From a virus (Duplodnaviria; Caudoviricetes): a DNA stretch of 41,697 bases. The translations under genes and the position numbers were made by a program. The stretch lies in the IMG/VR virus record IMGVR_UViG_3300020171_000733, positions 1 through 41,697 of that record. The stretch is one strand, 5' to 3'. Shown here in pieces: positions 186-41,410 of this stretch (positions within the stretch are counted from its first letter, which is position 1; the number at the start of each line of letters is the position of its first letter). A model generated the notes under the pieces. That model was not told the DNA's origin and searched no databases. It saw only the letters and a list, made by a program, of their open reading frames with translations.

Positions 186-1124
186 CTAAACAAATTCCTT
201 ATGCTTTAGATTCTTCTTGAGCATTGTGAGCGCCTTGTTATATTCATCATAATAGCAAACATTGCAAACACTCCCGTCGAAATTCCTCCCCTCATTGATT
301 ATATTCTCCAGATCTTCAATATTTCCCATGGACAATACCATGTCTTTTTTCTGACCTTTGACTGAATACTGCGATCCGCAGCAGGGGTATATCTTCCTGT
401 CAGGGCTTATCACAGGTTTCAACAGCGAAATATAGCATTCTTTTCTACCTTTTGTATAATTTTTTCTTCCTTGGTATATCACCAAATGATCATCTATCCC
501 TCGCCCTTTGATCCTATTTTCAACCTCTTTTACGTCCATTGAATTCTCCAGATCAAGCAGGTCATTGACCATCCTGATATGGGTGAAATTATGCTCGTTC
601 GCAAAATATATCATCTTTTCAATCCGATCATAGTTCGGCCTAGCGGACACGACATGGGAGAACGCAAAGTCAGTCTTGTTGTTTCTGACAGCCTCCTCAA
701 TACTCCTATAAGACGACTCGCGGCTGTCATCTGAGGAGATCCTGCACCAGGTCGGATCAGATTTCAGTTTGTCCAATAGAATCCCGTTGCTCACCAGGCC
801 AATCCTGATGTTCTGATTCTCCGCGTATTTGATCACATTGTTTATGTTGGGGTGGCACATTGGTTCGCCCCCTCCCGTGATTGTGATTGCCTTCGTCCCC
901 AGTTCCTTCAACCTGTCGATTATGCCGTACAGTTCGGGGAATGTGAATGACAGTTTCTTGTCCCTGTCATCGCATGAGCAGAAAGAACACGACAGATTGC
1001 ATGTATTTGTAGGCATGAGCTGGGCGTGGACGGGGATTATCTTCCCATTATAGACTGATAGGGTGTATAACAGCTTGATTGGAAAACTGCTCGCACTTGT
1101 GTATGATTCCTTTATGTCCTTCAT
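186..1124 (-). CDS. Radical SAM protein with C-terminal SPASM/twitch-like Cys motifs
   Basis: CNLSCSFC (CxxxCxxC), TGGGEP motif, C-terminal C...CC...CxxC; start moved to 1124 because of an ATGA overlap. Confidence 0.9.
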   Translation of the reverse strand: MKDIKESYTSASSFPIKLLYTLSVYNGKIIPVHAQLMPTNTCNLSCSFCSCDDRDKKLSFTFPELYGIIDRLKELGTKAITITGGGEPMCHPNINNVIKYAENQNIRIGLVSNGILLDKLKSDPTWCRISSDDSRESSYRSIEEAVRNNKTDFAFSHVVSARPNYDRIEKMIYFANEHNFTHIRMVNDLLDLENSMDVKEVENRIKGRGIDDHLVIYQGRKNYTKGRKECYISLLKPVISPDRKIYPCCGSQYSVKGQKKDMVLSMGNIEDLENIINEGRNFDGSVCNVCYYDEYNKALTMLKKNLKHKEFV

Positions 1125-1259
1125 TTTCTGTCCTTTGCTTGGTTGTTTATGCATTTTATCATCTCATCCCAGTCATTATTACAATCTAAGTTTTTGCATC
1201 CTCGGCAATACCTTGACCAAAAGTTAACGCATTTCATCATGTCATCTTGGCTTAGTTCT

Positions 1260-1886
1260 TTATATACCATTATCTTTAAAAAACTTATCAAATCCTTCTT
1301 TTAATATTTTTAACTGATCTAAAGTATAATTGTGAGAGTTGAGATATCCAAAATTATTGTTTATGAAGAGAAAATATGGCTTGTTATAATCAGCATGTTG
1401 GATTGTATTGATGACCCTTTGAAGACTTACATTGTTATTTTTGGGAAAATTAATCTCTTTTTTTATTAATTCTCCTTTCAGTATATATGTTCCATCATCT
1501 TCTTTCAATTCTTCTTGTTTGACCAATTCAAAGAAGCACTTATAATTATTTTGAAGAGCCCAAGTTGTATAGAACAGATGCCAGTCTTCTGTAAAAAAGT
1601 GGAGATGCTCATGATGCCGGAAAGCGCCTGTCCCCTTGATTGATGGAACAACATAAATGAATCTTCCCCCATCTTTTAGAACTCGATAACACTCTTCCAT
1701 AAGGAATCGGATATCTTGTATATGCTCAAGGGTATGTTCTGAATATATCTCATCAATTGAATTATTCGAAAATGGAAGACCTTTATTTAGATCCCTTACA
1801 TAATCTGGACAAGTAGATGGATCTATGTCTATTGTAGTGTATCCCTCCATCTTTTTGAATCCGTTTCCTAGTAATAGTTTAATCAT
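1260..1886 (-). CDS. Class I SAM-dependent methyltransferase (Methyltransf_11-like, sugar-associated type)
   Basis: LLGNG..IDID..DLNKGLPF..DEIYSEHTLEHI..ECYRVLKDGG. Confidence 0.85.
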   Translation of the reverse strand: MIKLLLGNGFKKMEGYTTIDIDPSTCPDYVRDLNKGLPFSNNSIDEIYSEHTLEHIQDIRFLMEECYRVLKDGGRFIYVVPSIKGTGAFRHHEHLHFFTEDWHLFYTTWALQNNYKCFFELVKQEELKEDDGTYILKGELIKKEINFPKNNNVSLQRVINTIQHADYNKPYFLFINNNFGYLNSHNYTLDQLKILKEGFDKFFKDNGI

Positions 1887-2443
1887 TTTAAGCAAATTGT
1901 ATGAATCTTAATCCAGCTTGGAAACTTAACCATCCCCATTAGTGAACCTTCCGGAACATCATAGCATAGATTATCATGGGGGCCAGATTCATAATACACA
2001 TTCTCAATCACTTTTAGATCAGCCTCATTGCATAATAATTTAATTCCTTGACTTGTGAATCTCCAGTAATCTGGGTATTCTAACCCTTTTATTTCATTGC
2101 CATGCATTTTGAATAAGAAGGTATTGATAGTGCATAATAACCCCCCTTTCTTTAAAATTCTACTAACTTCTTTCATTACTTTGTCCGGATGTTTTGAATG
2201 TTCTAACATGTCTATGAGTAAAACAGCATCAAAACTTTCATTTTCAAATGGCAATTCTTCTGCATTTCCTTGTACAAAGTTCCTCATATCCTTGTACTTG
2301 GTCCAATCCATTATATCAAAATTCGTCAGATCTTTGAACCCATAATCTGTATCTCCACAGCCAATGCTAATCATTTTTTTATCTTCCAATTTATAATGTC
2401 TGACAAACTCCTCGACATATTTTGTGCCTAATTCGCTAACCAT
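1883..2443 (-). CDS. Class I SAM-dependent methyltransferase
   Basis: ISIGCG, GNAEELPFENESFDAV, LEH, EVSRILKKGG, DYWRFT. Confidence 0.9.
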   Translation of the reverse strand: MVSELGTKYVEEFVRHYKLEDKKMISIGCGDTDYGFKDLTNFDIMDWTKYKDMRNFVQGNAEELPFENESFDAVLLIDMLEHSKHPDKVMKEVSRILKKGGLLCTINTFLFKMHGNEIKGLEYPDYWRFTSQGIKLLCNEADLKVIENVYYESGPHDNLCYDVPEGSLMGMVKFPSWIKIHTICLK

Positions 2444-2735
2444 TTATTTTCTCCATGAGATAATAATACTGAGTAGGTCTGTGAATTGCTAAGAATTCTG
2501 CAAATGCCAATGCATTCTTGTGGGCTGCGTTCTTGCCAAACTTATGACAAGTAACACAAAGAGTAATCCCATTCTTTAGATTATGCCTTAACTCTTTATA
2601 CCCATGCTTTGGAAGGATATGGTGTGAATTGAGTGTTTTAATACTTCCACATATTGCACATTTATAATTGTCTATTCTCTTCACTTCGTCTGCCCAAATT
2701 TTATCAAGCTTCTTACTTGGTTTTTTTGTTTTCAT
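2436..2735 (-). CDS. HNH endonuclease (small, NinG-like)
   Basis: RIDNYKCAICG..SHHI..NGITLCVTCH. Confidence 0.85.
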   Translation of the reverse strand: MKTKKPSKKLDKIWADEVKRIDNYKCAICGSIKTLNSHHILPKHGYKELRHNLKNGITLCVTCHKFGKNAAHKNALAFAEFLAIHRPTQYYYLMEKING

Positions 2736-2854
2736 TATTATCCTTAAGTGCTTCTAAAATCTTCTTTATCTTTGCAAGTAATTCTTCCAATGTAATGTTC
2801 TTGGCTATGTACTCTTCATTCATCAATAGATCATAATCTTCATTATTTATTATA

Positions 2855-3592
2855 TCAAATCTGACCATTTTTTAGTTTGAATTTCTCCTCTGATTCCTTG
2901 TATTTATTATCATATTTATCTGCTATTTCATCCCCCCATTTGTTTCTGAAATATTCTTTATTTCTATCTCTTACTTTTACAAAGTCTTCGTTCTCCTTGC
3001 CCATATTATAATCATGCCAATGCCAAGTAAACCCATCTACAAATATTTTATATCCTGCTTTTTTAATAGCTTCTGCTAGATCCATGTCATCATACGTGTA
3101 AGGATTGTATGCTTCATCAAACATCCCAACCTCTTCCAACACACTTTTCCTTAGAAACATCAGATTGGTTATGTAATCGGTTTCTATGTATTTAAGTGGC
3201 ATTTGGAATTGATTTGGACAATACTGGTCAATATTCCCTGTGGCATGACAGCAAGGTCCGACCATTCCAGCTTTTGTCTCATTAAGGCATTTGACTAGGT
3301 TCACATCCCAGTCATCTGTTAGGTAATAATCCGAATTTACATAAGCCAGATATTCCCCCTTAGATTCTCTTGCCCCTATGTTGTATGACTTGGCAATCCC
3401 TTCATTCTTCTCATGAGTTATTATCCTGACCCGATCATCCTTGATTGAATATATATAATCCTTTATATCTTTTTCACTGTTATTGTCTATAATTATCAAT
3501 TCAAATGGGACAGTGGTTAGTTTCAAAATTCGATCAATGCATCTCTTGCATTTTTCTGGTTCTTTCCAAACAAGCAGTATTATTGATATCAT
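2855..3592 (-). CDS. Glycosyltransferase family 2 (GT-A)
   Basis: ISIIL..IIIDNNS..NEGIAKSYNIG..YVNSD..FDEAY..DDMDL. Confidence 0.92.
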   Translation of the reverse strand: MISIILLVWKEPEKCKRCIDRILKLTTVPFELIIIDNNSEKDIKDYIYSIKDDRVRIITHEKNEGIAKSYNIGARESKGEYLAYVNSDYYLTDDWDVNLVKCLNETKAGMVGPCCHATGNIDQYCPNQFQMPLKYIETDYITNLMFLRKSVLEEVGMFDEAYNPYTYDDMDLAEAIKKAGYKIFVDGFTWHWHDYNMGKENEDFVKVRDRNKEYFRNKWGDEIADKYDNKYKESEEKFKLKNGQI

Positions 3593-3720
3593 TTTCTTAG
3601 GTGTTTTTTCAGATGGGGGCATTTCTCTGGATCGTGATCACAGTATCTCCCGTTGTACACATTGTCGCACATTCTCCTCCTCCAGCCGAATCCTCCATCC
3701 CTCTGGAACGGGCAATTCAC
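3589..3720 (-). CDS. Small 4-Cys protein (43 aa, GTG start)
   Basis: Fills the gap with GTGA and ATGA overlaps at both ends. Confidence 0.5.
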   Translation of the reverse strand: MNCPFQRDGGFGWRRRMCDNVYNGRYCDHDPEKCPHLKKHLRK

Positions 3721-4985
3721 CCGATTAGGAACTGTTCCCTTGCGATCCAATGCTTTGGAGTTTCCTCCAAAGTGAATCCTGACTCTTTTAATTTGCTTTT
3801 CCACCATGATCTGTCCTCCTTTATCCTATGCGTTTTATCTCCGTCCGCCTCCGGTGTTCCTTTGATTGGAACGCTGAATATGAAATGTTCACCAGCTTTT
3901 TTAATTCTTCTTAATACATCATCTATATCTTTGTAATCTAAATGTTCCAATATGTCTATACAAATCACTAAATCCCTTTTTTCCAAATCGATCTCTTTTA
4001 TGTCCTGGCACCTAAAAAAGTCCCCATAGGTCTGCTTGTCCAAGTTTATGATATACTGCGACTTGTCAATCCCGATGCAATCTATCCCCAGGCGGTTGAA
4101 CAGATAAGTAAGCTGTCCGGCCCCTGTTCCCAAATCCCATACTGTTTTCGGATGGAAATGGTTTATAAAATCCATGGCAAAGAAAGTATGTTTTAATTCC
4201 ATGTCCGTCCGGTTGAGGAAATAATTCATGTCATCTATGCCCAGTTGATCCAGGAAGAAGTATTTTCTCAGTATCTCCGGCAGGTCCTCATAACTGACCC
4301 TTTCATTGGGATAAGTTTCAAAGATATGGGATTCGAACCATCTGACCAGGAAATCGGGGGAGTGTATGTTCGATTTATTCATATGCCCTATGAATTTTTT
4401 CCTTATGTCAAACATGTTCTTGCAATATCCTAGATGCCATATTACCACTTCGTCATTCTCCTCATATTTTATGTTGTCTACTCCAAAAATACTCAAAACT
4501 GTGTGTTCTAATTCTGGATAAAAATATCTATAATCTACTTTGAAAAGTCTATTAGGCACATGATGTGTTTTTTGGGTTGAATCTTCTCGACTGAAGTTCC
4601 ACAATAAATGCCGCATTTTAGGAGAGATGATCTTACTTTCAGTCTTGTTTATGACCTCAATCAGTTTGTCTGGATTTTCTAATACCTCATCTGGATCAAG
4701 AACTAAAACCCAATCCGAAAAGAAATCCCTTTGTAATTCTTGAAGATAAATGTTTCTTTGTTTTCCGTTCTGTATTTTATCGTTTGGATCCCATTTTGCT
4801 TGAATGAATCTGACCGGAATGCCAGTAGTTTGATTAAATTGTTTGACTATTTCTGATACTTTAGGATCTTCCATCCCCCACACAAAAATCACTTGTTTGG
4901 CAATCTTAATTATAGATGCAAGACTTAACTCAAGAGTATCTGAACAAGAATCCCCAATATAAGATACAACTACTTTGTCTATCAT
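3717..4985 (-). CDS. GT2 glycosyltransferase fused to a C-terminal class I methyltransferase
   Basis: N-term KQRN..WVLVLDPDE..WHLGY; C-term WDLGTGAG..GIDKS..DILEHL. Confidence 0.88.
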   Translation of the reverse strand: MIDKVVVSYIGDSCSDTLELSLASIIKIAKQVIFVWGMEDPKVSEIVKQFNQTTGIPVRFIQAKWDPNDKIQNGKQRNIYLQELQRDFFSDWVLVLDPDEVLENPDKLIEVINKTESKIISPKMRHLLWNFSREDSTQKTHHVPNRLFKVDYRYFYPELEHTVLSIFGVDNIKYEENDEVVIWHLGYCKNMFDIRKKFIGHMNKSNIHSPDFLVRWFESHIFETYPNERVSYEDLPEILRKYFFLDQLGIDDMNYFLNRTDMELKHTFFAMDFINHFHPKTVWDLGTGAGQLTYLFNRLGIDCIGIDKSQYIINLDKQTYGDFFRCQDIKEIDLEKRDLVICIDILEHLDYKDIDDVLRRIKKAGEHFIFSVPIKGTPEADGDKTHRIKEDRSWWKSKLKESGFTLEETPKHWIAREQFLIG

Positions 4986-6226
4986 TGGCATAACCTCTTG
5001 ATTCTTTCTTCCCAAGCAGGGGCCACTACTCTTTCAAAATCATAATCCCTTAAAACTGCAATTCTCCCATTCTTTCCATACTGTTTTCTTAATTCTGGAT
5101 TATTATAAAATTTGACAATCTTTTCTGCTCCATCATAAACATCTGCTATCCCCCTCTCAACATGCCAGGATCCTAAAATAGTTCCATTCATCATTCTCAT
5201 GTCATAGTTAGATTGTCCGGATTCAAACATATTCACATGCTCAGTTCCAGATAATTTGATTCCTTCTCCGCAGTTGTTGTCTATTATTAATTCTTGAGTG
5301 GTGGTAAAATCAGTCACTAATTGGGGGATCTCCATGGCCATTGATTCGATTATAGTTATCCCAAAACCTTCTCCACTAGTAGTATCTAATTTCATGTCCA
5401 TCACTTGGTAAATGTCTGGCATCTTCCGATAATCAAAACCTTTATTCCAGGACATTCCAGAGAAAATCACCCGATTCTGCAACTTGAATTTTCTAATCAT
5501 TTCTCCCATGTCAAAATAAGCTGCAGGATCCATTGGATCACAATGACAGAACATAACTGCATTTGGAATCTTGTCCTTGACTATCGCCATTATCTTGAAC
5601 ATTCGATCACTCATTTTTCTTGGTTGGTTTCTGAAAACTGCCCCTATGACAAATTTATCAGTCAATCCCATCTGGGCTCTTAATAAATTCCTCTTATTCT
5701 CATCTGGTTTGAACAAATCTACATCCACTCCATGAGGGATATAATCACAATCTATTCCATGAATTTGTTTAGTCTGAGCTTGGGCGAATTTGCTCATAGC
5801 TACTGGCATATTTACTTTTCTAAGTATCAAAGAGCAATCTCTTCCTGGATTCATTGGTAAATTACTTCCCCCGTCACTTGGAAACCAAATTCCAGTCCTG
5901 GCAGGGGATAGATCTTGTTGTAAAAATCCTGAATCCATCAACATGAATGTGTCTAGTAAAACTCCAAAGAAGTCTGGCTTTATTTCCCTTAATCTTGTCT
6001 GTAATATATCTTGGAAATACGGCCTCGCTCCGTTTCCATATATCTTGAAATTGAATTTGGTTCCGTCTTCTAGTTCAGCCCCTGGCATTATTGTCTGACC
6101 AGTTCTGCAATGATCGAAATAATGTATCTCATGTCCTTTGCTGGCCAGATAATTCATTAATCTTTTTGACTGATCTGAGAACCCAGTTGAAAGAAATGGC
6201 GAATCCGAAAGCCAGCATATTTTCAT
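4982..6226 (-). CDS. Glycosyltransferase family 4 (GT-B)
   Basis: SDSP..TGF, IPHGVD, RNQPRK, TSGEGFGITIIESMAME. Confidence 0.92.
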   Translation of the reverse strand: MKICWLSDSPFLSTGFSDQSKRLMNYLASKGHEIHYFDHCRTGQTIMPGAELEDGTKFNFKIYGNGARPYFQDILQTRLREIKPDFFGVLLDTFMLMDSGFLQQDLSPARTGIWFPSDGGSNLPMNPGRDCSLILRKVNMPVAMSKFAQAQTKQIHGIDCDYIPHGVDVDLFKPDENKRNLLRAQMGLTDKFVIGAVFRNQPRKMSDRMFKIMAIVKDKIPNAVMFCHCDPMDPAAYFDMGEMIRKFKLQNRVIFSGMSWNKGFDYRKMPDIYQVMDMKLDTTSGEGFGITIIESMAMEIPQLVTDFTTTQELIIDNNCGEGIKLSGTEHVNMFESGQSNYDMRMMNGTILGSWHVERGIADVYDGAEKIVKFYNNPELRKQYGKNGRIAVLRDYDFERVVAPAWEERIKRLCQ

Positions 6227-6474
6227 ACTTTTAAATCTCCTAAGTCCAACTCTTTGGCTTCTTTCTTTATTGCTTCTTTTATATCTGCGTAAGAACATCC
6301 GCTTTTTAACACAATGCATTTGGTTCCAGAAATCTGAGTGAACTCAATGTGCCAAGATGTTCCAGCTCCTCCGGCCATTATGACCATCTCTTGGGGTAAA
6401 GTGATTCCAAATACGTCTTCTCCGTAATTTCCTTTTCGATTGACTAATTTTCTTATATCGTATATATTTCTCAT
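6223..6474 (-). CDS. AbrB/SpoVT-like DNA-binding protein
   Basis: RKL..G..FGITLPQE swapped-hairpin pattern. Confidence 0.55.
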   Translation of the reverse strand: MRNIYDIRKLVNRKGNYGEDVFGITLPQEMVIMAGGAGTSWHIEFTQISGTKCIVLKSGCSYADIKEAIKKEAKELDLGDLKV

Positions 6475-17101: not shown

Positions 17102-18504
17102 TATAATGATATTTTCTTGGTTATTTTTTTATAAATTGAATCTGCGATAGCATCTGAGTTTACCCCATAATTATCTCCATTGATTATAATAGTAGTTCCT
17201 TTTCCTCCGAAATCCTTCATGCCAATTATTGTATCTTGGGGGTCTGTCTCAATCAATTTCCCCTGTTTTGTTATTATAAAATCTCCCACCTTTTCTGCTT
17301 TGGATTCGGATAAGAATTTTGACGCTTTGGATAATAATCCCATCGGGGAATATTCATTTATCTTCTTCAAAACATTCCAGACTTTCTCGATTATGTCTAA
17401 GAACTTCTCTTTTATCCAATTATAAACATCTTTCAGTTTTCCCCACCAACTGACTATTATCTCTTTGAAGTTTTCCCATAATTGGCTTATCCATTCTGTG
17501 ATTTTGCCCCAATTAAGAATCAATGCGACTATTATTGCTATCAATGCTATTATTGCCAAGATTATTAATGTAATTGGGGCGAATACAATTGCCATGATCC
17601 CCCCGGCTGCATTCAGAACCATTATTGCACCTGCTATCATAAGTATCACTCCGAATAATACCAACAATCCAGCAACCAATAATCCAGCAATCGCAATTGT
17701 TTTCTTTTGACCATCGGTTAATCCATTAAACCAGTCGACTAATATCTGGAGTTTTTCTATAATTTTAAGAAAGATAGGTAAAACTGCTTCGCCTAATTCT
17801 TTTCTTAAACTGGCAAAACTATTTTGTAATTTTACTAAGGCTCCCTCTGATGTTTCTCCAGCGACTTTATTCATTCCCTCATATGTAGAATTAAGTATGT
17901 CTGTTAATGCTGTTATTCTTTCTGTCTCTGTTCCTGTTGATAATAATAGCTTTTGTTCTTCTGTTAGGACAAAACCGGTCCTGGTTAAACTTGCAAATTG
18001 TCCGTTTAATGCCTGTGCCAATCCATTTGCCAATGCAATGGCATCCCCGGTTGTAGCGCTTACTCCTTTTTCTGCAACTAGATAATCTAAAAATGCAGGT
18101 GTAAGGGCCCCAATCGATTCAGATTGCAGATCAAATGTGGCCAATTGCGCTTGAGCAGAAGTAATTACTTCTTCATTGATAACGCCGACTTTTTGCAAAG
18201 CACGAGCCTGATCAAATAATACTTCAATCTGTTCTTCTGATGCACCTCTTGAAGTTTTTAAGATATGGGCTAATTTGTTCTGTTGTGTTTCAAATTTGGC
18301 TGCTTCTTTGGCCATACTTCCAAATGCTAGAATTCCCGCTGTCCCTGTTGCAGTCATAATAGCCCCAGCGGCCATCATTTGTTTGCCTAAAGATTTGAAT
18401 GCATTTTCTGCAGACTTGGCTACATCGGAGAATTCATCTATTGCTTTGATAACTATCGCTACGACTGCTCCTCCTGCCGCTCCTGCTCCTAAATTTCCTA
18501 CCAT
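17101..18504 (-). CDS. Tail tape measure protein
   Basis: IKAIDEFS start, Ala/Gly helical region, TM segments, Trp repeats. Confidence 0.92.
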   Translation of the reverse strand: MVGNLGAGAAGGAVVAIVIKAIDEFSDVAKSAENAFKSLGKQMMAAGAIMTATGTAGILAFGSMAKEAAKFETQQNKLAHILKTSRGASEEQIEVLFDQARALQKVGVINEEVITSAQAQLATFDLQSESIGALTPAFLDYLVAEKGVSATTGDAIALANGLAQALNGQFASLTRTGFVLTEEQKLLLSTGTETERITALTDILNSTYEGMNKVAGETSEGALVKLQNSFASLRKELGEAVLPIFLKIIEKLQILVDWFNGLTDGQKKTIAIAGLLVAGLLVLFGVILMIAGAIMVLNAAGGIMAIVFAPITLIILAIIALIAIIVALILNWGKITEWISQLWENFKEIIVSWWGKLKDVYNWIKEKFLDIIEKVWNVLKKINEYSPMGLLSKASKFLSESKAEKVGDFIITKQGKLIETDPQDTIIGMKDFGGKGTTIIINGDNYGVNSDAIADSIYKKITKKISL

Positions 18505-27881: not shown

Positions 27882-28030
27882 AGTTCAAGCATCCTCTTTT
27901 TGTTTCTTTCATTGACTATCATAAAGCAATTTCCACACAACCACATTCCATTTATATTCATTATAACTATCCCTGGCTGAGTTGTTGCACCGCATTTTTT
28001 ACATGCGCAATTAATTAATTGATTATCCAT
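27872..28030 (-). CDS. Small Zn-finger protein
   Basis: CACKKC..WLCGNC. Confidence 0.6.
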   Translation of the reverse strand: MDNQLINCACKKCGATTQPGIVIMNINGMWLCGNCFMIVNERNKKRMLELWE

Positions 28031-29952
28031 TATCCTGTTATATCTTTTGACACTGGCAAACTTGAACATCTGCAATATGGATGAATACTATTTCTCACAT
28101 CTGTGTATTCATTCAATGTAAAAATCTGTCCGTTTAGACCCATACACTCATTACAAGTTCTTTCACTTATACTTGCTAACCATGATACTTTTTCATATCC
28201 TGCTTCTTTATAATCCTCGATTAAACCTAGATTGGCTAATCTTAAAGTTTCAGTCCTTGCTATTGCTATTGGTCTTTCCTCTTTGGTCAGTCTTAATTTT
28301 TTGTCCCCATCTTCTGTCAGAGTATATCTATCTTTTAGATCTATGTTTTCTTTTATGTCATTGGAAATATCTGATATTGATTTTCCATCTTTAAAACCAT
28401 TCTTCAATATAATCTTAAGTTTTTTAATATCCTCTTCTTTTAATAATCCTAATTCAATGGCTTTTTCGTAAGTCATGTCTTTTTGAAGACTTGCATTTAA
28501 TTTTTCAAAATCATCTTTGGTTATTTCCTTGTTGATGCTCTTCAGATAATCTTTGTAATTAAATCCTATGAATTCGATTAATGGCTTGTCATTAAACATA
28601 TCCAAACTTTCATGTATATGAATGCATTGAGCTATTGGAATCTTGGGTTGTTTTTCTGATTCTTCTTTTTTTCTTTCTTTGTCTGGAGTTTTAGTTTTTG
28701 TATTTCCTAACTGTGTTTGCATGTTGATTCTGTCCTCTTCCGCTCGTGCAGTTACGTCTTCTACACTAGGTAAAATATCAATATCTATTCCAAGCAATTT
28801 GGCCACTTCTATCTCAAGAGATGCCTTCAATTGTGGAGATATCCCTAAAGTGGCCATCATTCTCTGCAACCGGTCTAATTTATCATTAATATCAGATTCA
28901 GAGGCCATATTCCATTCAAATTCTACCTTTGCTTGTCGGCCATTATTGGCTAGAACAACTTTGAATATCCTCTCTTCAACTATTCGCTCTATAATCGTCT
29001 GAATAGATTTGATTCTTCGCATGAATGTGTCTTTCTGGTCTTTGGCTATTCCTTCTGGGATGTTTCCTTTTCCCATTATTACTTCAGGGACCTGGAAATC
29101 ATAAATCAACATGGACATATCATGATCTAATATCCCTGCAAACTTTTCTCCCAAATTCCCAAAATCAACAGATTTAATATCCACTCTATGATCAGTGACC
29201 CACTCTTGGAAGCATCTTAGATATTCTAATTTACCCCCCATTGCACTTAGATCCCCTGGTCTGGCAGGTTCTTCGGGTGTTCCAACTTTAATATGATAAG
29301 GTGTACCAGCTTTTCGTGAGACAACCAAATGCATGTCTTTCTCATTTTGCAGCAAATAATTTATATGAGTCAATGCTGGGTAGATTATCCCATAACCATA
29401 TGCACTATCCCCTATCTTATTAATCGGCAAATGGATTATCTGATTAGGATTGAAATTATTTATTTTATTCAAGTTAAAGTTTTTGTCTATTTTTCCAAAA
29501 TATTGGTTATATCCAAGCACTTCTCCTTTTCTGTTCCTTTCTATGAAGATATTATTTGCATTTAAAACTCTGATTTGATTCTCATTATCTATTTCCATGA
29601 ATCCATTCCCTTTGGCCAATGCTTCTCTTAGCCAGTCTCTTATGATAATCTTGAAGTTGCTGTCTTCTATCCACATCCTGATTATGTCTTCTGAAATCTG
29701 ATCATCTTTGCAATGCACTTGGAAATCTGTCCCTGCGATAAAATCTACATGCTTATCAACTGCACTTGTTGAGAATCCGAATTTTTTGTAGACTCCCTCT
29801 GCTTGTTCAAAAGAAAAAGGATGCTCTTCTCCTAGACTTTTTGGAAACTTAACTTCATTTATTACAACTTCTCCTTGTAGTTTTTCAGAAATGATCTTAT
29901 CAGGGATATAGATTATGTCTCTTATCCCTTCTTTTACTTTCACTCTCTTCAT
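28030..29952 (-). CDS. Portal protein fused to a C-terminal MuF (Phage_Mu_F/SPP1 gp7) domain
   Basis: KGNGFMEI, IIHL..YG portal motifs; IARTET..ERTCNEC..HPYCRC MuF motifs. Confidence 0.9.
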   Translation of the reverse strand: MKRVKVKEGIRDIIYIPDKIISEKLQGEVVINEVKFPKSLGEEHPFSFEQAEGVYKKFGFSTSAVDKHVDFIAGTDFQVHCKDDQISEDIIRMWIEDSNFKIIIRDWLREALAKGNGFMEIDNENQIRVLNANNIFIERNRKGEVLGYNQYFGKIDKNFNLNKINNFNPNQIIHLPINKIGDSAYGYGIIYPALTHINYLLQNEKDMHLVVSRKAGTPYHIKVGTPEEPARPGDLSAMGGKLEYLRCFQEWVTDHRVDIKSVDFGNLGEKFAGILDHDMSMLIYDFQVPEVIMGKGNIPEGIAKDQKDTFMRRIKSIQTIIERIVEERIFKVVLANNGRQAKVEFEWNMASESDINDKLDRLQRMMATLGISPQLKASLEIEVAKLLGIDIDILPSVEDVTARAEEDRINMQTQLGNTKTKTPDKERKKEESEKQPKIPIAQCIHIHESLDMFNDKPLIEFIGFNYKDYLKSINKEITKDDFEKLNASLQKDMTYEKAIELGLLKEEDIKKLKIILKNGFKDGKSISDISNDIKENIDLKDRYTLTEDGDKKLRLTKEERPIAIARTETLRLANLGLIEDYKEAGYEKVSWLASISERTCNECMGLNGQIFTLNEYTDVRNSIHPYCRCSSLPVSKDITG

Positions 29953-29974
29953 TAAAATATTATATTTTACTAAT

Positions 29975-30005
29975 TATTTAAATGTTCAAAAACCTGTATA
30001 TACTA
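29975..30005 (-). promoter_or_regulatory. Late promoter motif
   Basis: TATA 23 nt from portal ATG. Confidence 0.8.
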
Positions 30006-30077
30006 AGGTCACAGCCGGAATTGAACCGGCATCAAAGAGGTACAGACTCCTTATGTTAACCATTACACCATATGACC
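30006..30077 (-). tRNA. tRNA-Thr(UGU), atypical loop (C33)
   Basis: Acceptor GGTCATA/TGTGACC; AGGAG-TCTGTAC-CTCTT; GCCGG-TTCAATT-CCGGC. Confidence 0.75.
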
Positions 30078-30078
30078 A

Positions 30079-30149
30079 TGGGCATAGAATGAATCGAACA
30101 TTCATCATCAGCACATCGGGCTGACGCATTACCATTATGCAATATGCCC
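30079..30149 (-). tRNA. tRNA-Ile(GAU), atypical loop (C33, G37, U38)
   Basis: GGGCATA/TATGCCC; TCAGC-CCGATGT-GCTGA; GAATG-TTCGATT-CATTC. Confidence 0.8.
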
Positions 30150-30190
30150 TTTGTTTAATTGTTCAATTTATATACTTTACAATTAAACTA

Positions 30191-30261
30191 TTCCCCTACC
30201 AGGGGTCGAACCTGGACCACAGAATTCAAAGTCCTGTATGCTTCCATTGCACCATAGGGGT
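30191..30261 (-). tRNA. tRNA-Gln(UUG)
   Basis: CAGGA-CTTTGAA-TTCTG; CCAGG-TTCGACC-CCTGG; A1:A72 mismatch. Confidence 0.9.
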
Positions 30262-30262
30262 A

Positions 30263-30333
30263 TGGGACTGTTCAGAATCGAACTGAAATCTGATGTTCCC
30301 AAAACACCTATACTGCCATTATAATACAGCCCC
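30263..30333 (-). tRNA. tRNA-Pro(UGG)
   Basis: GGGGCTG/CAGTCCC; GGTGT-TTTGGGA-ACATC; TTCAG-TTCGATT-CTGAA. Confidence 0.9.
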
Positions 30334-30341
30334 GACTAGAA

Positions 30342-30374
30342 TTATTGCGTCGTGATGGGCTGTTGTGTTGTCAT
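30342..30374 (-). CDS. Putative leader peptide MTTQQPITTQ of the tRNA operon
   Basis: ATG 22 nt after TATA (30396-30403), the same spacing as leaderless genes; composition matches the four tRNAs. Confidence 0.6.
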   Translation of the reverse strand: MTTQQPITTQ

Positions 30375-30395
30375 AAGTAAATGTGTGATCTTTTA

Positions 30396-30409
30396 TTTAT
30401 AAATGTTAT
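30396..30409 (-). promoter_or_regulatory. BRE-TATA promoter of the tRNA operon
   Basis: AACATTTATAAA. Confidence 0.7.
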
Positions 30410-31791
30410 CTCTTGTTTGCTCCGAAGACCTCATAAGGGGCAGATTGTTTACAAGAAAGCGCCAAAGCAATCGACCAGAACGCATCTCCATGACCGTCTG
30501 CTGTCTCAATTGAATCAAGGTTGTTATTGACCGCTAGGATACTATTGATCATTCGTTGGTCATTCTGCAGTCTTAATTGTCCAATCAGAACAAACTTTTC
30601 AAAATTACTCGCCAGACTGAATTTCTCCTTGGCGGTAAATGGGACTGGCCTCCACAAACTCCTATGACAAACTCCAGACTCCATGAATGATTCGAGCTCT
30701 CCTCTAGTATTATCAAACCTTATCTGATCAATCATTAGAACCTCGGCTATGTTGTTGATGAATTCCACTTGCTTGAGATAGTCCCAGTTGTCGAAGAAAA
30801 TCTGATATATCTGCCTGTATAATCCTTTAGGATTCACTTCAAAGACAGTAAAATGAGACGGATGGACATGCTTGCCTATATCAAATCCTCCAACTATCAT
30901 CGTTTTAGATGATTTGCTCTCAGTCTTCTTTTGATTGATTAATTGGTTGTCTATCAGATTCAAGATAGCATCTCTTTTAAAGAATGCATCCTCTGACCAG
31001 ACCGGAGAGCATTGATACTCTTTGTTAAATGCTCTTTCGCCTAGTTCGACGTTTCTCAGATCGATCAGTCTCTCATAGGGGAACAGTTCGGGCCACAATA
31101 CCTCATGAGTAACTTCATTTATTATTGCTGGATTGCACGACCATGCAAAGTTCTTGTTCTCCTTCAGCTTGAAGAATAAATCCTGACTATGCTGGGCCGT
31201 CCCTAGTACTTTAATCTCCCCTCCTTCGCTTGGGATAGACATTATTTCTTCGAAGAATATTCTGTTAGCCTTCTCTATTTTGACTGGTTCGAGCATAATT
31301 GTCGGATCACTAAGCACATCATCTGCCAAAATCAACGTCGCCCTACGTCCTCTTTTTAGAGACTCCATTCCGCTCGGTTCGATTCTATGTATGAACTGTA
31401 TCTTCTCATAATCACTCTTAGACCAGGTTCCCTTAATCTCGGACTCAGCAGAACTCAGATCCCTATATTCCTTGAAATAGGGGTTCAATTGAATTAACTT
31501 CTTGATGTTTCTGATATGGTATCTGGCTAGATCTTCCTTCAAACTAATGTACAATATCTCCTGATTCTCTTGGACTGACCTGAACAGTTTCCACATGATG
31601 TAGGCATATCCTATTGTAGATTTAAGATGCCTTCTAGCCGATAGGATGGCCACATTCCGATTGTCCTGTATCAAATCCGCCCATTTGTCCAAGTGAGGAG
31701 TGGGTTTGATATTCTCATAGGACTTAAAAAATATATTATTCAGAAAGACCTTGAAAGATTGTACTGCCTCAATGATGAGTTTTTCATTCAT
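30406..31791 (-). CDS. terL: Terminase large subunit
   Basis: Variant Walker A ARRHLKST, Walker B ILADD, GTAQ, FNKEYQC, nuclease GFDIG and HGDAFWS. Confidence 0.93.
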   Translation of the reverse strand: MNEKLIIEAVQSFKVFLNNIFFKSYENIKPTPHLDKWADLIQDNRNVAILSARRHLKSTIGYAYIMWKLFRSVQENQEILYISLKEDLARYHIRNIKKLIQLNPYFKEYRDLSSAESEIKGTWSKSDYEKIQFIHRIEPSGMESLKRGRRATLILADDVLSDPTIMLEPVKIEKANRIFFEEIMSIPSEGGEIKVLGTAQHSQDLFFKLKENKNFAWSCNPAIINEVTHEVLWPELFPYERLIDLRNVELGERAFNKEYQCSPVWSEDAFFKRDAILNLIDNQLINQKKTESKSSKTMIVGGFDIGKHVHPSHFTVFEVNPKGLYRQIYQIFFDNWDYLKQVEFINNIAEVLMIDQIRFDNTRGELESFMESGVCHRSLWRPVPFTAKEKFSLASNFEKFVLIGQLRLQNDQRMINSILAVNNNLDSIETADGHGDAFWSIALALSCKQSAPYEVFGANKR

Positions 31792-39142: not shown

Positions 39143-39295
39143 CTAATTATTGTCATATTCATAGGATACCCTGATCTCACAAGTTTCTAAGCAGTTTGGG
39201 CAATATGGCCATTTCCGTTCGGTTGAGTCTAAAATTAAAGCATTATTAGCGAATATCTCTTGATTGCATTTCTTGCATCTTAATCGAGTTATCAT
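39143..39295 (-). CDS. Small Zn-ribbon protein (50 aa)
   Basis: Translated by hand; CKKC..CPNC; ATGA coupling. Confidence 0.6.
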   Translation of the reverse strand: MITRLRCKKCNQEIFANNALILDSTERKWPYCPNCLETCEIRVSYEYDNN

Positions 39296-40335
39296 TTTAG
39301 AATATCTTTAATCAATTTGACAGTCTTATCCCAAGTGTTGTTTTGCGCAGTCTCAATTGCGTTTAAACCCTTCTTTTTTAATAGTTCTGGATCAGAATGC
39401 GCGGTTCTCATAACTTGTCTTAATTGCTTAATATCTGGAGTAGCCCAATTAGTATTTTCATAAAACACTTCGTTTTTGATTTCTTCCATCTTATAATCAA
39501 TTAGCCAACCATTCTCATTGTTTAAGAAATCCATATATCCTGACCATCCGGTCGCTATTACGGGCAATCCACAGGCCATTGCTTCTATTACCTGTAGACC
39601 ATAAGATTCTGCCCGACTAGGTGAGACTAAAACATGCCCTTGATAAATCTCTCTTAATTTATTGTGAGGATACATATTGAAATCCAGGTAAATTTCAGGG
39701 GAGTCTGGTTTGACTATTTTAGTCAGATACTCGGTTATATAATTTCCATAAGCTTGATTGATGTGGATTCTTAAGATTGCTTCTCCTTTCTTGAATTCGC
39801 TTAGATAAGCTTCTAGAGCATATTGCAGCCCTTTTCTGTCCCATTTGTTTCTGAATCCTCCTGTAAACACAAATGTAAAAACCTCTGGTTTCTTAGTTGG
39901 GAAAAAATGTTCTAATGAAACCCCATGAGGGATTACTACTAATTTACTACTAATTACTATTGATTTAGTAGTATTTAGTATTGCTTGTTTTGTATGTTCA
40001 CTTGGGACAAAAACATATTTGATTCTTGGATCTTCCAGATTCTTTATGAAAGACTTAGGGATTCTATCCCCTTCCCAAACACAGAATCCTATGTTATTTT
40101 CTCCGGAAATATGCATGGGCCAGTTGAATGGGAGATCAATGATTAAATTCCACTCCCCATTTTCTGGCTTTCGATTAATCATTTCTACTTCTGCATCATT
40201 TAATTCCCTTTCGAATCCTTGAGGGATAAATGTTGTCAACCTGGTTGGCATTATCTTAAACAATGCATTGGCTAATGAACGGGTGTGACTTGCATAGCCC
40301 GACGTAGAGGCAATTTGCCCACAAATATTTATCAT
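39292..40335 (-). CDS. Glycosyltransferase family 4 (GT-B)
   Basis: SGYASHTR, VPSEH, IPHGV, RKG, SRAESYGLQVIEAMACG. Confidence 0.93.
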   Translation of the reverse strand: MINICGQIASTSGYASHTRSLANALFKIMPTRLTTFIPQGFERELNDAEVEMINRKPENGEWNLIIDLPFNWPMHISGENNIGFCVWEGDRIPKSFIKNLEDPRIKYVFVPSEHTKQAILNTTKSIVISSKLVVIPHGVSLEHFFPTKKPEVFTFVFTGGFRNKWDRKGLQYALEAYLSEFKKGEAILRIHINQAYGNYITEYLTKIVKPDSPEIYLDFNMYPHNKLREIYQGHVLVSPSRAESYGLQVIEAMACGLPVIATGWSGYMDFLNNENGWLIDYKMEEIKNEVFYENTNWATPDIKQLRQVMRTAHSDPELLKKKGLNAIETAQNNTWDKTVKLIKDILK

Positions 40336-41219
40336 TTGAATATCAAGTTAGTGCTTATTGCTAACTCCTCCTCTGTTGGTTCTAATAAGTTTAACCCCAG
40401 TTTATTATGATATTTATCGATAAAATTTCCATTCTGTTCAACCAGTTTTATTGTATCTTCTTTAAGTACTTCTTCATTGAATTTTACTAGTTCGTTTGAA
40501 TCTGGGAATCTTTCTCCACCAGACATGCACCCTAAATGCCAAGCGATTGCATTCATGTGATTTCCTATTTTGAATCCATTTACTATGGCATTGAAACTGA
40601 ATAATTGTTCTTCTCTGAACCCATGCTTGCTCAATCGAGTGGGGGCATACCTTACCTTGTCAAATACTTCCCTTTTGATCAGGGCAGAGCTTCTGAAATG
40701 ATCACTTGGTATTATTTTGTTATCAGTGTATAGCATTCCATAATCATCAGAATTCATTATGAAATTTCCTTTGTTGTCTAAAACTACCCTTGCTCCGATC
40801 TTCATCTTTTCTGGATCTCTAACAAATTGAGGGGCACAACCAGGGGTTACTCCGCTCATTATGTCAAATTCTTTCATGCCTTCAATCAATTTTTCAATAA
40901 AATCTGGCTCACAGATTACATCATCATCTATTCTTAGATAATAATCCCATGGATCTTTTAATGCTTCGTCTAATATCCTTTGTCTGGCCAGACTGACCCC
41001 ATGGGGGAATTCTGTCCTTAGAAATTTGATATTATGATTATCCATTTTAATAATATTGGATATGCAATTGAAGAAATGATAATTTTGTAAAGCAGTGCCT
41101 CCTTGATCATCTAGTATGTACAAATCCCAATCTTTATGTGTTTGATTCTTAAGACTTACCATAAGTAATGATAGTTCTGTTGGTCGATCTCGTGTGTTTA
41201 CGCAAATTGCAACTTTCAT
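40332..41219 (-). CDS. Glycosyltransferase family 2 (GT-A)
   Basis: TRDRP..ILDD..RIDDD..REE. Confidence 0.9.
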   Translation of the reverse strand: MKVAICVNTRDRPTELSLLMVSLKNQTHKDWDLYILDDQGGTALQNYHFFNCISNIIKMDNHNIKFLRTEFPHGVSLARQRILDEALKDPWDYYLRIDDDVICEPDFIEKLIEGMKEFDIMSGVTPGCAPQFVRDPEKMKIGARVVLDNKGNFIMNSDDYGMLYTDNKIIPSDHFRSSALIKREVFDKVRYAPTRLSKHGFREEQLFSFNAIVNGFKIGNHMNAIAWHLGCMSGGERFPDSNELVKFNEEVLKEDTIKLVEQNGNFIDKYHNKLGLNLLEPTEEELAISTNLIFK

Positions 41220-41410
41220 TTTTTCTTCCTGCACATGTAATAATCCTTCCCGTTTCTGTATATTGTTCCGCCCAAATATCGGCAGAACCTATGCTCCTCT
41301 GGATCATGATGGATATAATAGCATACTTTCTCTTTGTCTATATTTATTGAAATATCCTTCTTACCACTTACACAATCATCTATTGTTTTCTGGAATTTAC
41401 TTTTTGTCAT
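41216..41410 (-). CDS. Small 4-Cys protein (CRYLG..YYMC)
   Basis: Motif shared with 12074..12229. Confidence 0.65.
   Translation of the reverse strand: MTKSKFQKTIDDCVSGKKDISINIDKEKVCYYIHHDPEEHRFCRYLGGTIYRNGKDYYMCRKKK

What the first reader, a model, noticed from the sequence alone, without database searches (positions are those of the whole stretch)
30006..30409. Viral tRNA operon headed by a leader peptide made only of the four cognate amino acids: candidate tRNA-depletion-sensing switch
Seen: a TATA box (30396-30403) lies 22 nt before an ATG, the same spacing as this virus's leaderless genes. It opens ATG ACA ACA CAA CAG CCC ATC ACG ACG CAA TAA = MTTQQPITTQ, ending 8 nt before tRNA-Pro. 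All nine post-Met codons are Thr, Gln, Pro or Ile, all four occur, and the four downstream tRNAs are Pro(UGG), Gln(UUG), Ile(GAU) and Thr(UGU). A crude uniform-codon chance is (13/61)^9, about 1e-6, not corrected for composition or post-hoc selection. The leader can also pair with the first tRNA: ACAGCCC-(ATCA bulge)-CGAC with GTCG-GGGCTGT, which sequesters the 5' acceptor strand of tRNA-Pro. Established: leader peptides rich in cognate codons sense charged-tRNA shortage in trp/his/thr/ilv attenuators, and phage tRNAs can replace host tRNAs cut by anticodon nucleases. Inference: a ribosome stalled on the leader when these host tRNAs are depleted frees the tRNA fold or permits read-through, giving on-demand production of replacement tRNAs. 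I know of no description of this for viral tRNA operons.
Basis: partly seen in the sequence, partly recalled or inferred. Interest (0 to 1): 0.93.

Follow-up and report, generated by a model that had tools for sequence, protein, structure and literature searches.

The report
Archaeal virus tRNA-shortage leader switch
A virus that likely infects tiny DPANN archaea puts a 10-codon mini-gene, spelled only in the four amino acids of its four tRNA genes, directly in front of them, and related viruses pair different tRNA sets with matching mini-genes, so the virus likely makes these tRNAs when ribosomes stall for lack of them.

Summary
Observation confirmed. A TATA box, a start codon 21 nt later and a 10-codon frame (Met, then only Thr/Gln/Pro/Ile) end 8 nt before tRNA-Pro, Gln, Ile, Thr in a head-tail virus whose terminase relatives occur in Nanoarchaeia genomes. 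Four other likely archaeal viruses each carry two tRNA sub-operons with their own matching leader; the true pairing of 8 units ranks 3 of 40,320. Two leaders in Nanoarchaeia-class genomes hold all 20 amino acids in 33-35 codons. Several arrays lack a leader. There is no bacterial terminator. Modelling frees the tRNA-Pro acceptor stem only while a ribosome sits on codons 2-10, but this gate is window-specific and fails once tRNA-Gln is included. Best reading: a stall-activated attenuator, likely acting through the archaeal terminator aCPSF1/FttA (5 of 5 host-class genomes); the effector is unproven. This scan already noted bacterial-phage versions on other DNA (one later marked in doubt), but no archaeal one. 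Ten paper searches found no description.

The parts
30396..30403 (-). Archaeal-type TATA box of the tRNA operon
   Evidence: same 21-22 nt spacing as five protein genes of the window; relatives also have TATA-like sites right after the terminase (by eye)
30342..30374 (-). Leader mini-ORF, likely leaderless: Met + 9 codons, all Thr/Gln/Pro/Ile, then stop
30326..30363 (-). Predicted leader:tRNA-Pro hairpin (5' arm 30363-30349 with a 4-nt bulge; 3' arm 30336-30326 includes tRNA-Pro nt 1-8)
   Evidence: z -3.9; ribosome walk
30263..30333 (-). tRNA-Pro(UGG)
   Evidence: 52.9 bits
30190..30262 (-). tRNA-Gln(UUG), abutting tRNA-Pro
   Evidence: 56.8 bits
30153..30188 (-). 10-bp inverted repeat around a TATA-like site (30174-30167); only 17 nt before tRNA-Ile, 4-5 nt short of this virus's spacing. 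Spacer hairpin, operator or internal promoter
   Evidence: similar promoter-like stretches in Nanoarchaeia-class genomes (L250, L251); a related contig lacks 8 nt here
30079..30149 (-). tRNA-Ile(GAU) with unusual C33 and G37
   Evidence: 63.6 bits
30006..30077 (-). tRNA-Thr(UGU) with unusual C33
   Evidence: 57.5 bits
30406..31791 (-). Terminase large subunit (upstream flank)
   Evidence: PHROG 38, E 5e-37; 47-48% relatives in two Nanoarchaeota/Nanoarchaeia MAGs
28030..29952 (-). Portal-MuF fusion with its own TATA box (downstream flank)

Best explanation
The virus has a 10-codon leader made only of Thr, Gln, Pro and Ile codons in front of its Thr, Gln, Pro and Ile tRNA genes, and this leader likely acts as a shortage sensor: a ribosome slowed on any of these codons would let the tRNA transcript be completed, while fast translation would shut it off. 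Shown: promoter geometry, frame, codon match, co-variation across viruses, absence of a bacterial terminator, aCPSF1 in the host class. Predicted: a hairpin that traps tRNA-Pro's 5' strand unless a ribosome sits on codons 2-10. Inferred: the leader is translated from a leaderless transcript, co-transcriptionally. A held ribosome keeps the termination nuclease aCPSF1/FttA off the nascent RNA, as a stalled ribosome keeps Rho off in tnaC/mgtL, and here also lets tRNA-Pro fold. Once viral tRNAs accumulate the stall ends, giving negative feedback with OR logic (one codon or more per tRNA).
For: (1) Window: 9 of 9 codons cognate, binomial P 7.6e-7 on the window's amino-acid frequencies; shuffle nulls 1.2e-4 to 0.5%. 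(2) Co-variation: L203 11/16 for Tyr-Lys-Asn-Leu and 13/17 for Thr-Cys-Met-Ser-Ala-Trp; L166 13/18 and 10/18; L301 18/21 and 21/22; L167 11/18. The true pairing ranks 3 of 40,320; I read the two higher ones as swaps among like-set units. The reduced set of 5 units from 3 viruses ranks 1 of 120. Within one virus each leader scores only 0-0.29 against the other sub-operon's set (L203, L166, L301). L301, L167's leaders, L468 and L496 were read after the hypothesis was formed. (3) Every tRNA of the set has a codon in its leader in 6 of 8 units; the misses are His in L301's second leader and an internal Met in L166's second. (4) L468 holds all 20 amino acids in 32 post-Met codons (P about 2.5e-4). 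It precedes an array that likely continues on a viral contig and then covers all 20. L496 holds all 19 non-Met residues in 34 codons (counted by eye). (5) Over 10 leaders, G/C-ending codons are 59 vs 28 expected and distinct codons 162 vs 146 (0 of 5,000 simulations each). (6) Three-state switch predicted in the window. The ATG-to-tRNA region folds better than shuffles (z <= -2.1) in 7 of 10 units. (7) aCPSF1 (TIGR03675) over cut-off in 5 of 5 Nanoarchaeia-class genomes. FttA/aCPSF1 is described as Rho-analogous, Spt5-linked and U-tract-binding (PMC13681488, PMC8716108). (8) Related arrays lie beside tRNA repair genes (CCA-adding enzyme, RtcB, RlaP, RNA ligase).
Against: No orthologue of this leader was found: the closest terminase relatives (67%, 53%, 50%) have no tRNAs here. 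Arrays without a leader exist: L282 (6 tRNAs), L281, L031, L494; L470 and L493 are unclear. There is no U4 tract in the window's 8-nt spacer, and one in only 5 of 10 spacers. With tRNA-Gln included, the native Pro stem has P <= 0.001 in every ribosome state. The first tRNA is not gated this way in the 9 other units. Leaders were picked by eye with the tRNA sets in view, and some tRNAs were relabelled or added by eye. L166's second unit alone is not significant (P 0.07). L496's all-amino-acid leader precedes only 6 visible tRNAs. A TATA-like site before tRNA-Ile could uncouple Ile/Thr from the leader. Some leaders are weakly similar, so units are not fully independent. Coupling in DPANN is unproven.
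Confidence: 0.6

Rival explanations
1. Same sensor, but the output is post-transcriptional: the whole array is always transcribed, and the stalled ribosome only decides whether the precursor folds, is processed or is degraded.
For: In the window the leader pairs directly with tRNA-Pro nt 1-8, and the switch is three-state. The 8-nt spacer leaves no room for a terminator. Trapped Pro is predicted to mispair with the start of Gln. Leaderless poly-Cys sORFs in mycobacteria work by a stalled ribosome blocking a structure (10.1101/834739, abstract).
Against: None of the 9 other units gates its first tRNA. Folding of one tRNA would not explain codons for up to 13 downstream tRNAs.
Confidence: 0.17
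2. Reverse polarity: translation of the leader is simply needed to carry polymerase into a non-coding array, and its codons match the viral tRNAs so that it stays translatable (positive feedback).
For: It explains the codon match without a switch. Uniform U-rich terminators are lacking.
Against: Leaders sample rare G/C-ending codons, and the window's Pro codon is not read by its own tRNA-Pro under ordinary wobble. All-20-amino-acid leaders are the most stall-prone design possible. Leaderless arrays are apparently expressed without one (L282).
Confidence: 0.1
3. In this window the element is chance or a decayed relic: an A/C-rich hairpin arm behind a family-wide promoter, with Ile/Thr driven from an internal promoter.
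For: With the hairpin fixed, 0.5% of shuffles match. No orthologue was found. It is the shortest leader. There is an internal TATA-like site.
Against: The same design recurs with other tRNA sets. All four amino acids are present and no other. The internal site is 4-5 nt too close to tRNA-Ile, and 8 nt closer still in a relative.
Confidence: 0.1

Closest known systems
Multivalent leader-peptide transcription attenuators of enterobacterial amino-acid operons (thrL, ilvL; trpL, hisL) - features recalled, not from a call
   Same: Short leader rich in codons for the operon's product; senses charged tRNA by ribosome speed; alternative RNA pairing; several amino acids in one leader
   Different: It controls tRNA genes rather than enzymes; it is viral with a likely archaeal host; it has a TATA promoter and a likely leaderless start; there is no hairpin + U-run terminator; up to 20 amino acids are sensed in relatives
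uORF-dependent, Rho-dependent attenuation (tnaC, mgtL, corL; PMC12360218 passages)
   Same: A ribosome held on a leader prevents factor-dependent termination; mgtL works through proline codons (title of Gall 2016 in that paper's reference list)
   Different: Archaea lack Rho (own knowledge); the proposed factor is aCPSF1/FttA; no loading site was identified here
Polycysteine leaderless sORF attenuators of mycobacteria (10.1101/834739, abstract)
   Same: A leaderless short ORF heads an operon; a stalled ribosome blocks an inhibitory duplex
   Different: There the output is a ribosome-binding site and one amino acid is sensed; here the trapped element is a tRNA acceptor strand
Phage tRNAs as counter-defence to anticodon nucleases (PMC10264068 passages)
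   Same: Viral tRNAs with odd anticodon loops (C33 in Ile and Thr); repair genes nearby in relatives
   Different: My term search of that paper found no 'promoter' or 'archae'; the passages seen do not address how the tRNAs are regulated
Codon-matched attenuators before bacterial phage tRNA arrays
   Same: Leader codons mirror the downstream tRNAs
   Different: Those notes describe a predicted transcription stop signal; this is the archaeal-virus form without a bacterial terminator

Membership tests
Classical ribosome-mediated transcription attenuator | Short leader ORF with an initiation signal at the operon's 5' end | tested here: met
   TATA + 21 nt + ATG, as for five genes of the window
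Classical ribosome-mediated transcription attenuator | Leader enriched in codons tied to the operon's product | tested here: met
   9 of 9; co-variation ranks 3 of 40,320
Classical ribosome-mediated transcription attenuator | Mutually exclusive RNA structures chosen by ribosome position | tested here: inconclusive
   Met up to the end of tRNA-Pro; lost when tRNA-Gln is included; not shared by the other units
Classical ribosome-mediated transcription attenuator | Intrinsic terminator (GC hairpin + U run) between leader and first gene | tested here: not met
   0 terminator-like sites in 29900-30500; 8-nt spacer
Classical ribosome-mediated transcription attenuator | Expression responds to aminoacyl-tRNA level | not testable with these tools
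   Needs a reporter or in vitro system
Factor-dependent uORF attenuation (tnaC/mgtL type) | Host has an RNA-loading termination factor | tested here: met
   aCPSF1 in 5 of 5 Nanoarchaeia-class genomes; the exact host is unknown
Factor-dependent uORF attenuation (tnaC/mgtL type) | Factor loading site whose exposure depends on the ribosome | tested here: inconclusive
   U4 tracts in 5 of 10 spacers, none in the window's; accessibility by ribosome state was not computed
T-box riboswitch | Rfam T-box stem I / antiterminator match | tested here: not met
   Whole-window Rfam scan at E <= 1 gave only 4 tRNAs
Permuted or split archaeal tRNA gene | An upstream 3' half with T-arm completing an incomplete tRNA | tested here: not met
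   tRNA-Pro is full length; no T-loop in the leader (by eye)

The most novel reading that the evidence does not exclude
Viruses of DPANN archaea use a general 'checklist' attenuator: a designed mini-peptide with at least one codon per downstream tRNA (all 20 amino acids for a full array), coupled to aCPSF1/FttA termination instead of a hairpin terminator. This would be ribosome-mediated transcription attenuation in archaea, and a feedback loop by which a virus detects host tRNA destruction and replaces exactly the missing set.
Probability: 0.45. Interest if true: 0.93.

Novelty: new variant of a known kind. Interest (0 to 1): 0.85.

Why it matters
Viral tRNAs are thought to replace host tRNAs lost to defence nucleases, but how their supply is controlled is open. 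A codon-matched leader gives a direct, testable feedback circuit. [quoted passage not shown] A 70-nt natural element whose output should depend on ribosome position would be a compact reporter for that coupling and for aCPSF1 polarity. Leader codons also predict which tRNAs a truncated or decayed array held.

Tried and rejected
Direct orthologue searches failed: single-protein scans of viral contigs; a 16-nt leader motif (20 hits, none with a tRNA); a tRNA-Pro pattern (0); blastn against 50,697 phage records (0); blastn against 401 Nanoarchaeia-class genomes (only short tRNA or promoter pieces). Sequencing runs: no RNA holder listed; two small-share runs laid only short pieces outside the tRNA region. 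A blind scan of 165 loci (143 with a tRNA call; mostly unrelated phages and host tRNA pairs) gave 7 candidates at uncorrected P < 0.01, one being L301's second leader again. It did not flag L468's leader, whose visible tRNA set is partial. ARAGORN with forced introns miscalled tRNAs and was discarded. Permuted or split tRNA, T-box, and a bulge-helix-bulge processing site in the leader (bulge on the wrong side, by eye) were rejected. A shared 'first tRNA gate' across units was rejected. The FttA paper PMC7103508 was not held, so its sequence preference is not cited. Left uncomputed: pyrimidine accessibility by ribosome position across units, and an empirical control for all-amino-acid mini-ORFs.

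Full report
Setting. The window is one 41,697-nt virus record with nearly all genes on the minus strand: terminase, portal-MuF, capsid, tail tube, glycosyl- and methyltransferases. Terminase relatives are numerous (173 at E <= 1e-40). One is named from a Candidatus Nanoarchaeia archaeon, and the only 2 genome hits are Nanoarchaeota/Nanoarchaeia MAGs at 47-48%. With the TATA promoters, the host is likely a Nanoarchaeia (DPANN) archaeon. This is inferred, not shown.

Observation. All stated features are present. The TATA-to-ATG gap is 21 nt, as in five protein genes. The nine codons after Met are Thr x4, Gln x3, Pro and Ile, and the four tRNAs are Pro, Gln, Ile and Thr. Better nulls raise the chance from 1e-6 to 1.2e-4 (mononucleotide shuffle) or 0.5% (hairpin bases fixed). 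On the window alone I first put the sensing idea at 10%.

Relatives. I aligned 59 terminases and 48 portals and fetched loci. Of 229 loci scanned, 37 had a tRNA call. The closest relatives carry none at this site, so there is no orthologue. Larger arrays in the wider group gave the decisive pattern. L203 (portal 41% identical) has a leader at 1045-1098 before Tyr, Lys, Asn, Leu and another at 2010-2066 before Thr, Cys, Met, Ser, Ala, Trp. L166 (minus strand 2037-1978 and 1044-985), L301, the same DNA as L302 (2590-2658 and 4257-4328), and L167 (2830-2889 and 4192-4266) also have two each. L166, L167 and L301 are viral by terminase or tail genes. Their archaeal nature rests on TATA promoters and intron-bearing tRNAs; two of five intron folds show a 4-bp helix with a 3-nt bulge.

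Statistics. Cognate fractions for 8 units are 9/9, 11/16, 13/17, 13/18, 10/18, 18/21, 21/22 and 11/18, with P from 7.6e-7 to 0.07. The true pairing ranks 3 of 40,320; it ranks 3 of 5,040 without the window, and 1 of 120 for five units from three viruses. Left out: L167's second unit (contig ends after two tRNAs), one unassigned intron tRNA in L167, and L468. Changed by eye: L166 'Gly' to Pro, L167 'Ser' to His, L166 Lys added (32-bit Rfam hit), and L203 Asn kept despite its endonuclease-bearing intron. Leaders were chosen by eye: TATA gaps of 17-27 nt in five units, an SD-like site in two, longer 5' regions in the rest. Four leader pairs show weak similarity.

All-amino-acid leaders. Tandem-tRNA patterns over 401 and 351 Nanoarchaeia-class genomes (26 and 12 with a match) gave two more. 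L468 (1187-1288) holds all 20 amino acids in 32 codons (P about 2.5e-4). Its array ends at a contig end. A second contig of that genome starts with 15 called tRNAs, an archaeal RNase P RNA (95 bits) and viral plus tRNA-repair genes. The join is likely but has no overlap. L496 (minus strand 2458-2351) has a TATA box at 21 nt and all 19 non-Met residues in 34 codons, but only six visible tRNAs, broken by a LAGLIDADG gene, in a contig not shown to be viral. Without a leader: L282, L281, L031, L494. Unclear: L470, L493. None seen in three distant arrays (L280, L284, L287; L287 is cut by its contig end). Over 10 leaders, rare G/C-ending and distinct synonymous codons are in excess, which fits codon sampling or structure.

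Mechanism. No bacterial terminator lies in 29900-30500. In the window a modelled ribosome gives OFF (none bound), ON (A site on codons 2-10) and OFF (at the stop) for the tRNA-Pro acceptor stem. With tRNA-Gln present, equilibrium folding loses the stem in all states; the model lacks tertiary contacts and co-transcriptional order. Other units have structured leaders and spacer hairpins but no first-tRNA gate, and U4 tracts in 5 of 10 spacers. Archaeal termination uses U-tracts and aCPSF1/FttA, described as Rho-analogous and Spt5-linked (PMC13681488, whole text; PMC8716108, passages). aCPSF1 is in 5 of 5 genomes tested. I therefore commit to stall-dependent anti-termination with negative feedback, like mgtL/tnaC (PMC12360218, passages), with the window's hairpin as a local addition. 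The sensor is about 0.8 likely; the effector about even. A TATA-like site before tRNA-Ile is 17 nt away, too close by this virus's spacing, and 8 nt closer in a related contig, so it probably does not uncouple Ile, though this is not settled.

Comparison and novelty. It works like a multivalent attenuator but fails the terminator feature, so it is not filed as a classical one. Ten searches of the held library (listings only) showed no paper on leader-peptide control of viral tRNA genes or on such control in archaeal viruses; subscription journals are largely missing. Also read: PMC10264068 (passages) and 10.1101/834739 (abstract and outline). No supplements were seen. This scan holds 8 listed notes on bacterial-phage versions, one later marked in doubt, and none on archaeal viruses or this genome. 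I had already read the L203, L166, L301 and L167 leaders when I saw those notes; they are not counted as support.

Verdict: real and well beyond chance at family level; a new variant of leader-peptide attenuation; mechanism inferred; interest 0.85.

Noticed in passing
L469 958-1181 (G297:C14): An archaeal RNase P RNA (95 bits, above cut-off) embedded inside a viral tRNA array, beside CCA-adding enzyme, RtcB and RlaP genes: a virus-borne tRNA maturation and repair kit.
   Followed up: partly
L203 1272-1760: tRNA-Asn with a 415-nt intron holding a 120-aa ORF (PHROG 5018, unknown function; endonuclease-like by eye): a possible homing intron in an archaeal-virus tRNA.
   Followed up: partly
window 30079-30149 and 30006-30077: tRNA-Ile and tRNA-Thr have C at position 33 (normally U) and Ile has G37; possibly nuclease evasion.
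   Followed up: no
window 30153-30188; also 39093, 35718, 12247, 36806: A 10-nt motif recurs next to several TATA boxes in the virus and as an inverted repeat around TATA-like sites in Nanoarchaeia-class genomes (L250, L251): a candidate operator.
   Followed up: partly
window 30262-30263, 30077-30079; L282 1398-1784: Viral tRNAs abut with 0-1 nt spacers and several arrays start about 20-25 nt after a TATA box, suggesting leaderless transcription and 3'-cut punctuation.
   Followed up: no
L166, L167, L301: The two sub-operons split the amino acids similarly (Asn/Thr/Ser/Leu/Cys/Ala versus Glu/Gln/Pro/Arg/Phe/Asp/Val/Gly/His/Ile), roughly by the first base of the codons read.
   Followed up: no
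L331 about 690-930: A GC-rich, likely bacterial phage with a short leader rich in Leu/Pro/Trp/Gln (9 of 21) and a terminator-like hairpin before those four tRNAs.
   Followed up: no
window 17655-17690 (+): A Gln/Pro/Ile-rich repeat on the plus strand, antisense to the tape-measure-like gene; it gave the only other 9-codon runs of these residues.
   Followed up: no
window 186-6319 and 39292-41234: A cluster of glycosyltransferases, methyltransferases and a radical SAM protein: a virion or DNA modification module.
   Followed up: no
L492/L493 (G781): A near-complete array of about 28 tRNAs in a Nanoarchaeia-class MAG with a 21-codon upstream ORF rich in Gln and Asn, the first two tRNAs; status unclear.
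   Followed up: partly
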